Part shown: positions 15,973 to 18,645 of the stretch, one piece after another
Layout of the letters: every line of letters begins with the position of its first letter
Numbering within the stretch: the stretch's first letter is position 1
Assembly: GCA_964016885.1 (NCBI GenBank)
Contig: OZ024743.1
Coordinates: forward strand, 178,560,001-178,624,000
DNA from: Eledone cirrhosa
Taxonomy: Eukaryota
Direction: 5' to 3'
Length of the DNA stretch: 64,000 nucleotides
The notes under the pieces: generated by a model
Seen by the model: only the letters and a program-made list of their open reading frames with translations
The model's database searches: none
Told to the model about the DNA's origin: nothing
Position numbers and translations under genes: made by a program

Positions 15973-16478
15973 ATACATTATGAAGAGAGAAGAAACATTT
16001 AGATATAATTAGTAATAAAATGTATCATACCTTCGTGGTTATAAGAGGCTTAGCTCTGTTTCTCGACCGTTATATCGCGTGACTATCTCCCCCTCCGCCT
16101 TTTGGGATTCTTTCTCACGTCGTGTAGACGCGTTCTTGAGACTAGTAAAATGAGGTATCCTCTTGATAAGTCGGCAGACCTCGCAAGGACTCTATATCTT
16201 TGATATATTGTTTTTGTTTATGCCACGAAACTACGTAGTCGAGGAATTTAGGAACAGTTTAGGTATGATACATTTTATTACTAATTATATCTAAATGTTT
16301 CTTCTCTCTTCATAATGTATTTTTAACTCTGATACTGGTTCAGTCTAGTTCAAACTGAATTGGTCTGTCCCAGTCATTCATTGAGCAACATCGGTGAAGT
16401 TGGCACCCTTAACTCACAGTTGGGTGCGGATGCACTCATGTATATATGTGTGTGTCCGCATGTATCTGTGTGTTTCTA
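15973..16478 (+). mobile_element. Short HHR element with 60-bp inverted repeats and tail
   Basis: 15973-16031 is the reverse complement of 16261-16321; tail to about 16478; (TA)n flanks. Confidence 0.7.
16158..16245 (+). ncRNA. Hammerhead ribozyme, U3-A8 core variant
   Basis: tcctc TTGATAA gt-c-ggca...tgcc-ac GAAA ctacgtag TC gagga. Confidence 0.75.
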
Positions 16479-16977
16479 AATATATATATAAATATATATA
16501 TATATAAATATATATATAAATATATATATATATATATAAATATATATATATATATAAATATATATATATATATAAATATATATATATATAAATATATATA
16601 TATATATTTAAATATATATATATATAAATATATATATATATATATAAATATATATATATATAAATATATATATATATATAAATATATATATATATATAAA
16701 TATATATATATAAATATATATATATAAATATATATATATAAATATATATATATATATATAAATATATATATATATATAAATATATATATATATACAAATA
16801 TATATATATATACAAATATATATATATAAATATATATATATATATATAAATATATATATATAAATATATATATATATAAATATATATATATATAAATATA
16901 TATATATATATAAATATATATATATATATAAATATATATATATATATAAATATATATATAAATATATATATATATAT

Positions 16978-17926
16978 ATATATTGTTATACTTTGGGGGG
17001 GTCATGTTGCCAATAAGAAACACACGCACCAGTTGCTTTCACTTCAATTTATTATATATCTATAAATTTATAAATTTACAAATCTACAAACTTATAAATT
17101 TCTTGTTGGTTGGTTGGTTCCACAACCAGATAGTTGTTTATATATAGTCATAGTCCTTTGTCACACACTCTGTGACCTCTTCGGTGACTGGGGATTCCAG
17201 TGTTCATTTATAAATGAACGAATAAATGAACACTGGCGAGACCTTCAAGATAATAAAGAATCATCTGTGCTCTACCAACATGCTAAGAAAGAACACAGGG
17301 GTAGATTAGAGAACATAGAAATAAAAATAGAATCCACACACAGAAAAGATGCAATGTTTAGGCAAATTAGAGAGGCAGTAAGCATAAAAGAATTACAAAC
17401 AAAATTAAATAGAAAATATGAGTGGAACAGCAACATCACAACTTACAATTAAGGACAAAATGAAAACAAACACACACATAGAACAAACAACCAACCAACA
17501 ATAAATAAATAAATAAATAAACAAATAGATAAATGAGCACAAACACACACAGACACCCGGATGTGGCGCATGCGCAAACTGAGCACACGACACACACACA
17601 GAAACAAAATGGCGTAGGATAGAAGAAAGGAAAGGCACAGAAACAAAGAAAGGAATCCCCAGTCACTGAAGAGGTCACAGAGTGTGTGACGAAAGGACTA
17701 TGACTATATATAAACAACTATCTGGTTGTGGAACCAACCAACCAACCAGAAATTTATAAGTTTGTAGATTTGTAAATTTATAAATTTATAGATATATAAT
17801 AAATTGAAGTGAAAGCAACTGGTGCGTGTGTTTCTTATTAGCAACATGACCCTCCCAAAGTATAACAATATCGGTTTCAACAGACGATTTCAGATAAAGA
17901 ATCTTGCTAAACAAATTCAGAAACGA
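16978..17926 (+). mobile_element. Heavily 5'-truncated PLE with inverted pLTR
   Basis: 16978-17197 is the reverse complement of 17652-17872; tail 17873-17926. Interior ~17207-17452 encodes a GIY-YIG C-terminus (ERINEH...LYQH...H...RQIREAVSI...LNRKYEWN). Confidence 0.82.
17661..17705 (+). ncRNA. Minimal hammerhead ribozyme in pLTR; mirror copy at 17146-17190 is degenerate
   Basis: agtca CTGAAGA g gtcaca-gagtg-tgtgac GAAA ggac TA tgact. Confidence 0.72.
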
Positions 17927-18047
17927 AATATATATATATATATATATATATATATATATATATATATATATATATATATATATATATATATATATATAAA
18001 TATATATATATATATATATATATATATATATATATAAATATATATAT

Positions 18048-18105
18048 GCGGTGCCCCAGTATGGCCTCAGCCGGATGGCTGAAACAGGTAAAAGAGTAAA
18101 AGAGT
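18048..18105 (+). mobile_element. SINE 3' fragment
   Basis: gcggtgccccagtatggcc...gctgaaacaggtaaaagagtaaaaga resembles a common octopod SINE 3' end (from recall). Confidence 0.55.
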
Positions 18106-18607
18106 ATATATATAAATATATATATATATATATATATAAATATATATATATATATATATAAATATATATATATATATATATACATAAATATATATATATA
18201 TATAAATATATATATATATATAAATATATATATATATAAATATATATATATATATAAATATATATATATATATATATAAATATATATATATATATATATA
18301 AATATATATATATATATATATATAAATATATATATATATATATATATATATATATATATAAATATATATATATATATATATATATATATATATATATATA
18401 TATATATATATATATTATATATATATATATATATATATATATATATATATATAAATATATATATATATATATATATATATATAAATATATATATATATAT
18501 ATATATATATTAGAAAGTGAGGTTTTTTTTACAAAATGAAAAATAACCGAGGTGTCCTACACGAGTGAAAGTATAAAGAAAAACCACAAACCCTCCATCT
18601 CAATTCA

Positions 18608-18645
18608 CCTTTTGAAAAGCAGAAGAATTGCGAAACCGGTAAAGG
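18608..18645 (+). ncRNA. 38-nt minimal hammerhead ribozyme, U3-A8 variant
   Basis: cctt TTGAAAA gca-gaagaat-tgc GAAA ccgg TA aagg, inside a ~200-bp insert between TA tracts. Confidence 0.75.

What the first reader, a model, noticed from the sequence alone, without database searches (positions are those of the whole stretch)
16158..18645. Independent hammerheads with a compensatory U3-A8 core (UUGAUAA / UUGAAAA)
16158-16245 (TTGATAA) and 18608-18645 (TTGAAAA) have well-paired stems I and II, a palindromic stem III, GAAA and UH, but replace the C3-G8 tertiary Watson-Crick pair with U3-A8. This swap is known to be functionally tolerated. A double change in unrelated families argues for selection on catalysis. 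CUGANGA-based searches would miss these motifs.
Basis: partly seen in the sequence, partly recalled or inferred. Interest (0 to 1): 0.7.

Follow-up and report, generated by a model that had tools for sequence, protein, structure and literature searches.

The report
U3-A8 hammerheads of Penelope-type retroelements
Both motifs are real and are the standard form in two jumping-gene families with about 6,000 motif copies each in this animal genome; they are predicted to be self-cutting RNAs with a base swap already published for such elements, and a sister family in the same window spread equally widely with a motif that is likely crippled.

Summary
Both motifs are present as described, and U3-A8 is the family state. 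6,042 of 6,077 matches of family A (16158) and 6,318 of 6,357 of family B (18608) carry the exact core. B is the pseudo-LTR hammerhead of a Neptune-type Penelope-like element with RT and GIY-YIG domains. A is a 591-nt non-coding tandem retrozyme with the same two-ended, (TA)n-flanked insertions.

Natural U3-A8 is published (PMC3088659), also for Penelope-like elements (PMC4209133, about 1,300 hits). This scan has reported it before on other DNA of this genome.

Coupling of positions 3 and 8 holds at family level: 9 C3-G8, 3 U3-A8 and 0 mismatched clusters, and a third family has C3-G8 sisters. Independent origin of A and B is not shown, and cleavage is untested.

The less ordinary result is a sister Neptune family in this window (7613-10240; 6,332 matches). 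It adds A13C and has a 3-bp stem I, yet has intact ORF copies. B's U3 is also predicted to mispair with A17. This lineage could test whether these elements need their ribozyme.

The parts
16158..16245 (+). Type I hammerhead motif, family A, U3-A8 core (U3 16163, A8 16168), C17; predicted cleavage after 16240
   Evidence: 6,042 of 6,077 pattern matches exact
16030..16491 (+). 5'-truncated copy of the 591-nt family A retrozyme unit, ending at the distal fixed end (TTTCTAA then (TA)n)
15968..16032 (-). Inverted piece of the family A unit ending near the proximal fixed end, about 80 nt after the predicted cleavage site
18608..18645 (+). Minimal type I hammerhead motif, family B, U3-A8 core (U3 18612, A8 18617), A17; predicted cleavage after 18641; likely needs a dimer
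   Evidence: 6,318 of 6,357 exact
18577..18719 (+). Pseudo-LTR fragment of Neptune-type element B, ending at the proximal fixed end before (TA)n
   Evidence: full element read in L080
18504..18583 (-). Tail segment of element B in opposite orientation, ending at the distal fixed end
7613..10240 (+). 5'-truncated copy of sister Neptune-type element D: inverted pLTR piece 7613-7780, RT/EN piece 7783-9036, 3' UTR and pLTR
10040..10077 (+). Hammerhead-like motif of family D: U3-A8 core from 10043, 5-bp stem II, GCAA instead of GAAA (C13 at 10065), CCGG, UA, stem I of only 3 A-U pairs

Best explanation
Both motifs are the family-standard U3-A8 type I hammerhead motifs of two (TA)n-targeting Penelope-type retroelement families, a protein-coding Neptune-type element (B) and a 591-nt non-coding retrozyme (A), and are predicted to cut the element RNA, B likely only weakly and as a dimer. 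Shown: family membership, fixed U3-A8, an RT + GIY-YIG ORF between two motif-bearing pLTRs for B, tandem units without a convincing ORF for A, two fixed 3' ends and (TA)n flanks. Inferred: a read-through transcript is cut after H17, two copies pairing through the palindromic helix III; in A this would release a 591-nt monomer or circle; a Penelope-type RT/EN would then start copying at two internal sites, giving direct and inverted pieces. U3-A8 likely keeps the 3-8 tertiary pair and was fixed in each master copy, then multiplied. It is a tolerated variant rather than a new chemistry.
For: Exact core in 6,042 of 6,077 (A) and 6,318 of 6,357 (B) matches. All 18 non-U3 copies of B keep A8 and none is C3-G8. 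pLTR-ORF-pLTR copy in L080 and a 770-aa open frame in L079 with RVT_1 (E 5e-07) and GIY-YIG (E 7.6e-05). 591-bp tandem arrays. 3' ends: A 14 at about 80 nt and 8 at about 245 nt of 25, 23 of 25 followed by TA repeats; B 13 at about 80 and 9 at about 150 of 26, 24 of 26 followed by TA, matching the two-site initiation and tail of PMC11167929. Helix III self-duplex -12.9 (A) and -8.3 (B) kcal/mol; B dimer fold -12.9 vs monomer +3.7. Family census 9 C3-G8, 3 U3-A8, 0 mismatched (rough coincidence 1/220). Family C (U3-A8 in all but one junction-cut copy tallied) aligns with two C3-G8 sisters (scores 139 and 126 vs shuffle means 24-28). Published precedent.
Against: No cleavage or expression data here. 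A pairwise scan of one hammerhead found only G3-C8 rescuing. Minimal PLE hammerheads cleave poorly in vitro even as dimers (PMC4209133). For B the non-hammerhead cofold (-18.5) beats the dimer fold (-12.9), and the MFE of the majority copy pairs U3 with A17. Family D spread with A13C. The helper of A was not identified. With the relaxed descriptor the random sample gave U3-A8 6 (shuffle mean 1.3) and U3-G8 3 (0.6), so single-copy counts alone are weak.
Confidence: 0.72

Rival explanations
1. In the Neptune B/D lineage the hammerhead is decaying. U3-A8 with A17 is a weak or dead ribozyme kept as a fold or protein-binding site, and the elements spread without needing self-cleavage. Family A may still cleave.
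For: D carries A13C in 98 of the first 100 of 6,332 matches. No other letter at 10065 reaches 3% in two runs that cover it. Stem I has 3 A-U pairs; ORF2 is open in L249 and L251; median divergence 1.1% in 23 pattern-picked copies; no second canonical core with a usable GAAA in D's 3' UTR or pLTR. A13 mutations are cited as 10-100-fold inhibitory (PMC4075628). U3-A17 mirrors the inhibitory C3-G17 pair (PMC3884650; fold). Naiads thrive without canonical hammerheads (PMC8557442).
Against: B and D keep UUGAAAA, stem II, ACCGGU and UA although their RT/EN are 56% identical. B has a complete core. A 10-100-fold drop is not zero. Protein help in vivo has been proposed.
Confidence: 0.3
2. U3-A8 arose once in an ancestral element of this lineage, and A, B, C and D inherited or exchanged it, so the two motifs are not independent events.
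For: B and D are homologous (pLTR z = 15). A, B and C all end in TTCTAA, and A and B both have a proximal end about 80 nt after the predicted cut. No C3-G8 parent was found for A or B; only 2 C3-G8 motifs with ACCGGT exist genome-wide under the pattern used, neither related to B.
Against: A vs B, A vs C and B vs C alignments are at shuffle level (z -0.1 to 0.3). C sits among close C3-G8 sisters, which suggests a switch of its own.
Confidence: 0.3
3. The two motifs are chance look-alikes or decayed copies of C3-G8 families.
For: One U3-G8 decayed copy exists in the window at 15671; the monomer fold of B is unstable.
Against: About 99.4% exact cores in two families of about 6,000 matches; position in the pLTR; 0 hits in shuffles and reversed controls.
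Confidence: 0.02

Closest known systems
U3-A8 minimal hammerheads of Cercyon Penelope-like elements, Schistosoma mansoni (PMC4209133; parts 1-2 of 4 read, supplements not read)
   Same: U3-A8 core, type I, pLTR location, palindromic helix III, inverted pairs a short distance apart, many solo copies, proposed dimer action.
   Different: Here the motif is homogeneous and young (about 6,000 near-identical matches per family), helix II of B is short, the element is Neptune-type, and sister D adds A13C.
Animal non-LTR retrozymes (PMC7229834, passages; bioRxiv 10.64898/2026.07.22.740005, part 1 of 5)
   Same: Family A: tandem non-coding unit with one type I hammerhead per unit; likely mobilised by PLE enzymes.
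   Different: 591 nt, longer than the 170-400 nt RNAs reported; U3-A8 core; circular RNA not shown here.
Natural U3-A8 hammerheads (PMC3088659; passages and section 8 read)
   Same: Same compensatory covariation of the 3-8 pair.
   Different: The A13 substitution of family D is not among the variants named in the section text; figures and supplements were not seen.
Neptune/Nematis-type EN+ Penelope-like elements (PMC8557442, passages)
   Same: B and D: RT, CX4CX2C linker, C-terminal GIY-YIG, pLTRs, inverted 5' piece, tail, (TA)n targets, frameshifted ORF1.
   Different: Tails of about 70 nt (B) and 165 nt (A) are longer than the 30-40 bp described; Neptune vs Nematis not resolved by a tree.

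Membership tests
Type I hammerhead ribozyme | Core N3-UGA-N7-N8-A, GAAA, UH with three helices in type I order | tested here: met
   for A and B
Type I hammerhead ribozyme | Watson-Crick 3-8 pair (canonically C3-G8) | tested here: met
   U3-A8 in both families; a published natural alternative
Type I hammerhead ribozyme | Match to an Rfam hammerhead model | tested here: not met
   0 hits in the window at gathering score; the 10 C3-G8 motifs were missed too, so this says little
Type I hammerhead ribozyme | Site-specific self-cleavage after H17 | not testable with these tools
   needs an in vitro assay
Type I hammerhead ribozyme (family D motif) | Invariant G12-A13-A14-A15.1 box | tested here: not met
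   GCAA in 98 of 100 listed matches
EN+ Penelope-like element, Neptune/Nematis type (family B) | RT followed by C-terminal GIY-YIG endonuclease | tested here: met
EN+ Penelope-like element, Neptune/Nematis type (family B) | CX2-5CxxC linker between RT and EN | tested here: met
   CX4CX2C read in the B and D translations; definition
EN+ Penelope-like element, Neptune/Nematis type (family B) | pLTRs with hammerhead, tail and inverted 5' piece | tested here: met
EN+ Penelope-like element, Neptune/Nematis type (family B) | Placement in the Neptune clade by RT phylogeny | not tested
Animal non-LTR retrozyme (family A) | Short non-coding tandem units, one type I hammerhead each, dispersed | tested here: met
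   the longest frame over the unit is 86 aa stop to stop
Animal non-LTR retrozyme (family A) | Expressed as linear and circular monomer RNA | tested here: inconclusive
   no RNA holder listed; one looped 621-nt contig in run X5 of unknown kind could equally come from tandem DNA

The most novel reading that the evidence does not exclude
One Neptune lineage is losing its hammerhead while still amplifying. Family B has U3-A8 with a U3-A17 trap, and sister family D adds a fixed A13C and a collapsed stem I yet reached more than 6,300 young motif copies with intact ORFs. This would be a natural graded knockout showing that Penelope-like elements do not need ribozyme cleavage. Alternatively, U3-A8 plus C13 is an undescribed working core.
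Probability: 0.3. Interest if true: 0.6.

Novelty: new member of a known kind. Interest (0 to 1): 0.3.

Why it matters
The U3-A8 swap itself is known, so the finding as stated adds examples, not a new principle. It does show that CUGANGA-only searches would miss at least about 12,400 motif copies from A and B alone in this genome. The role of hammerheads in endonuclease-bearing Penelope-like elements is called unclear in PMC8557442. The series A and C (U3-A8, C17), B (U3-A8, A17) and D (U3-A8, A17, C13), all young and abundant in one genome, makes that question directly testable with short transcripts.

Tried and rejected
Rfam scan: nothing.
Whole-motif folding z-scores were weak (-0.65 to -1.85) and were not used as support.
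The GIY-YIG-like remnant beside the C9 array of family A had no Pfam hit and was not accepted as A's helper.
Family E (483-nt, C3-G8) was tested as a parent of A or B: not significant (z 1.1 and 0.0).
A C3-G8 sister of B was sought with one pattern: 2 matches, no RT or pLTR similarity.
The excess of A3-G8 hits in the relaxed scan is mostly ATG microsatellite in the rows printed.
Sequencing runs: no RNA holder listed. All four runs laid are contigs of unknown kind. X4 laid nothing on either stretch and X5 nothing on D, which proves nothing.
The ORF1/ORF2 frameshift was first taken as possibly new; a frameshifted ORF1 is in the Fig. 1 legend of PMC8557442.
Przybilski and Hammann 2007 and Lunse et al. 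2017 (the latter recalled, not from a call) were not held, so published U3-A8 kinetics and small PLE hammerhead variants, possibly including A13 variants, were not seen.
Searches for A13C in print: 0 papers; listings only; supplements were not read.

Full report
Observation. Both motifs are at the stated coordinates with the stated parts. The window is G000:C4:178560001-178624000 of a 3.0-Gb, TA-microsatellite-rich animal genome. My descriptor found 13 type I motifs in the window: 10 C3-G8, 2 U3-A8 and 1 U3-G8. Rfam found none at gathering score. In 80 evenly spaced 10-kb samples a strict descriptor gave 17 C3-G8, 4 U3-A8 and 0 of the other 14 combinations, with 0 in 5 shuffles. A relaxed version gave, at score 12 or more, C3-G8 39 (shuffle mean 0.6), U3-A8 6 (1.3), A3-G8 5 (0.9), U3-G8 3 (0.6) and C3-A8 1 (0.4). 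The single-copy census is therefore clear for C3-G8 and modest for U3-A8.

Family state. With positions 3, 7 and 8 left open, family B has 6,357 matches, of which 6,318 are exactly UUGAAAA. The 18 copies without U3 (10 C, 5 G, 3 A) all keep A8, and none is C3-G8. These look like single post-insertion mutations (inference). Family A has 6,077 matches, 6,042 exactly UUGAUAA. Reversed controls gave 0. These counts are of motif copies, not insertions, and use exact flanks, so older copies are missed.

What B is. L080 holds pLTR, ORF1, RT/EN and pLTR, with the motif in both pLTRs. The 770-aa frame in L079 matches RVT_1 and GIY-YIG just above Pfam's cut-offs and has a CX4CX2C linker, the mark of Neptune/Nematis elements (PMC8557442, passages). 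ORF2 lies in the -1 frame behind a T TTT TTA heptamer shared with family D. The window copy is a pLTR fragment plus an inverted tail in (TA)n.

What A is. A is a 591-bp unit in tandem and head-to-head arrays; the longest frame over the unit is 86 aa stop to stop. Its copies end at two fixed points, about 80 and 245 nt after the predicted cut (14 and 8 of 25 ends; 23 of 25 followed by TA repeats). B ends at about 80 and 150 nt (13 and 9 of 26; 24 of 26 followed by TA). This fits the two-site internal initiation and tail shown in vitro for a Poseidon element (PMC11167929, abstract and first part of the main text) and the retrozyme model (PMC7229834, passages; bioRxiv 10.64898/2026.07.22.740005, part 1 of 5). 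I did not identify A's helper.

Mechanism. Inferred steps: transcription through tandem copies; pairing of two motifs through the palindromic helix III (self-duplex -12.9 for A and -8.3 kcal/mol for B; B dimer fold -12.9 vs monomer +3.7); cleavage after H17; copying by a Penelope-type RT/EN into (TA)n. A can also fold as a monomer within about 1 kcal/mol of its MFE. Against this for B, a non-hammerhead cofold is more stable (-18.5), and the majority copy's MFE extends helix I with a U3-A17 pair. That pair is the analogue of the C3-G17 pair presumed to inhibit G17 hammerheads (PMC3884650, passages); the analogy is mine. A and C have C17 and avoid it. My rough odds of cleavage are 0.75 for A and 0.5 for B.

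Independence and selection. A and B align no better than shuffles (score 30 vs 26.8 +/- 4.0, 60 of 300 shuffles as good; z 0.3), so common origin is not detectable, but no C3-G8 parent was found for either. A third family, C (316-bp unit, L138 and L196-225), is fixed for U3-A8 and aligns with two C3-G8 relatives (scores 139 and 126 vs shuffle means 24 and 28, 0 of 200). That is the one direct switch seen. Across 285 overlapping, partly target-enriched loci (1.64 Mb), clusters present in at least 2 loci with an exact core were 9 C3-G8, 3 U3-A8 and 0 mismatched. Single-locus clusters and clusters with a core deviation were left out of this count. Random pairing would give this in about 1 of 220 cases, but the families are few and not phylogenetically independent. 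The pair is probably under selection; that this is selection on catalysis is inference.

U3-A8 was reported in nature in 2011 (PMC3088659, passages and section 8) and in Cercyon Penelope-like elements in 2014, with about 1,300 hits (PMC4209133, parts 1-2 of 4). The same paper found low in vitro activity of minimal PLE hammerheads. A full pairwise scan of one hammerhead found only G3-C8 rescuing (PMC9901934, passages), so tolerance depends on context. The scan's own notes already list family A, family C and U3-A8 Neptune hammerheads in this genome.

Family D. The window contains a 5'-truncated sister element at 7613-10240 (ORF2 56% and ORF1 43% identical to B). Its pLTR motif is homologous to B's but has GCAA in place of GAAA, in 98 of the first 100 of 6,332 matches, and only three A-U pairs in stem I. 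No other letter at that position reached 3% in the two runs covering it. ORF2 is open over 784 aa in 2 of 9 long loci fetched (L249, L251). Median divergence of pattern-picked copies was 0.9% (A, 64), 2.1% (B, 47) and 1.1% (D, 23); these are biased low and include duplicates from overlapping loci. No second canonical core with a usable GAAA lies in D's 3' UTR or pLTR. A13 mutations are cited as 10-100-fold inhibitory (PMC4075628, one passage). I found no A13C hammerhead in the library (0 papers; listings only) or in the scan's notes, but two key papers were not held and supplements were not read.

Verdict. The motifs are real, family-fixed and of a known kind: new members, interest 0.3. The boldest open reading, probability 0.3, is that the B/D lineage shows a hammerhead decaying in elements that still spread.

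Noticed in passing
window 7613-10240: Neptune-type family D with fixed U3-A8 plus A13C motif and weak stem I; 6,332 matches.
   Followed up: yes
L080 minus strand about 3151-3190; L246, L248, L249, L251: ORF1 and RT/EN ORF overlap in the -1 frame at a T TTT TTA heptamer conserved in B and D; likely a programmed frameshift; downstream stimulator not examined.
   Followed up: partly
L138:6235-6520 and L196-L225: Family C, 316-bp U3-A8 retrozyme with C17 and close C3-G8 sisters (L065, L102).
   Followed up: partly
L080:620-860 and L255-L284: Family E, about 483-bp C3-G8 tandem unit with stem I like B's and a short motif after the tail end like A's, but no significant overall similarity.
   Followed up: partly
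window 5088-5153, 6711-6792, 13489-13554, 20112-20182, 22098-22168, 26565-26630, 33004-33064, 39692-39752, 55776-55821, 57461-57533: Ten C3-G8 type I hammerhead motifs, most with palindromic helix III and many followed by TA repeats, none found by Rfam; 15671-15736 is a U3-G8 copy of one of these families.
   Followed up: partly
L115 + about 2916 and - about 445: Two diverged motifs with GAAA-CCGG-UA, one U3-A8 and one U3-G8, possibly an older family.
   Followed up: no
window 16990-17870: About 880-bp stretch with long inverted ends (16990-17270 vs 17640-17870), inserted in TA repeats between the two motifs.
   Followed up: no
window 18047-18105: Short GC-rich hairpin-bearing insert within (TA)n, ending in a GTAAAAGA-type repeat; structure not examined.
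   Followed up: no
run X5 on window 16030-16480: One 621-nt contig loops once round the whole 591-nt unit with 2 differences; the run kind is unknown and tandem DNA would give the same loop.
   Followed up: no
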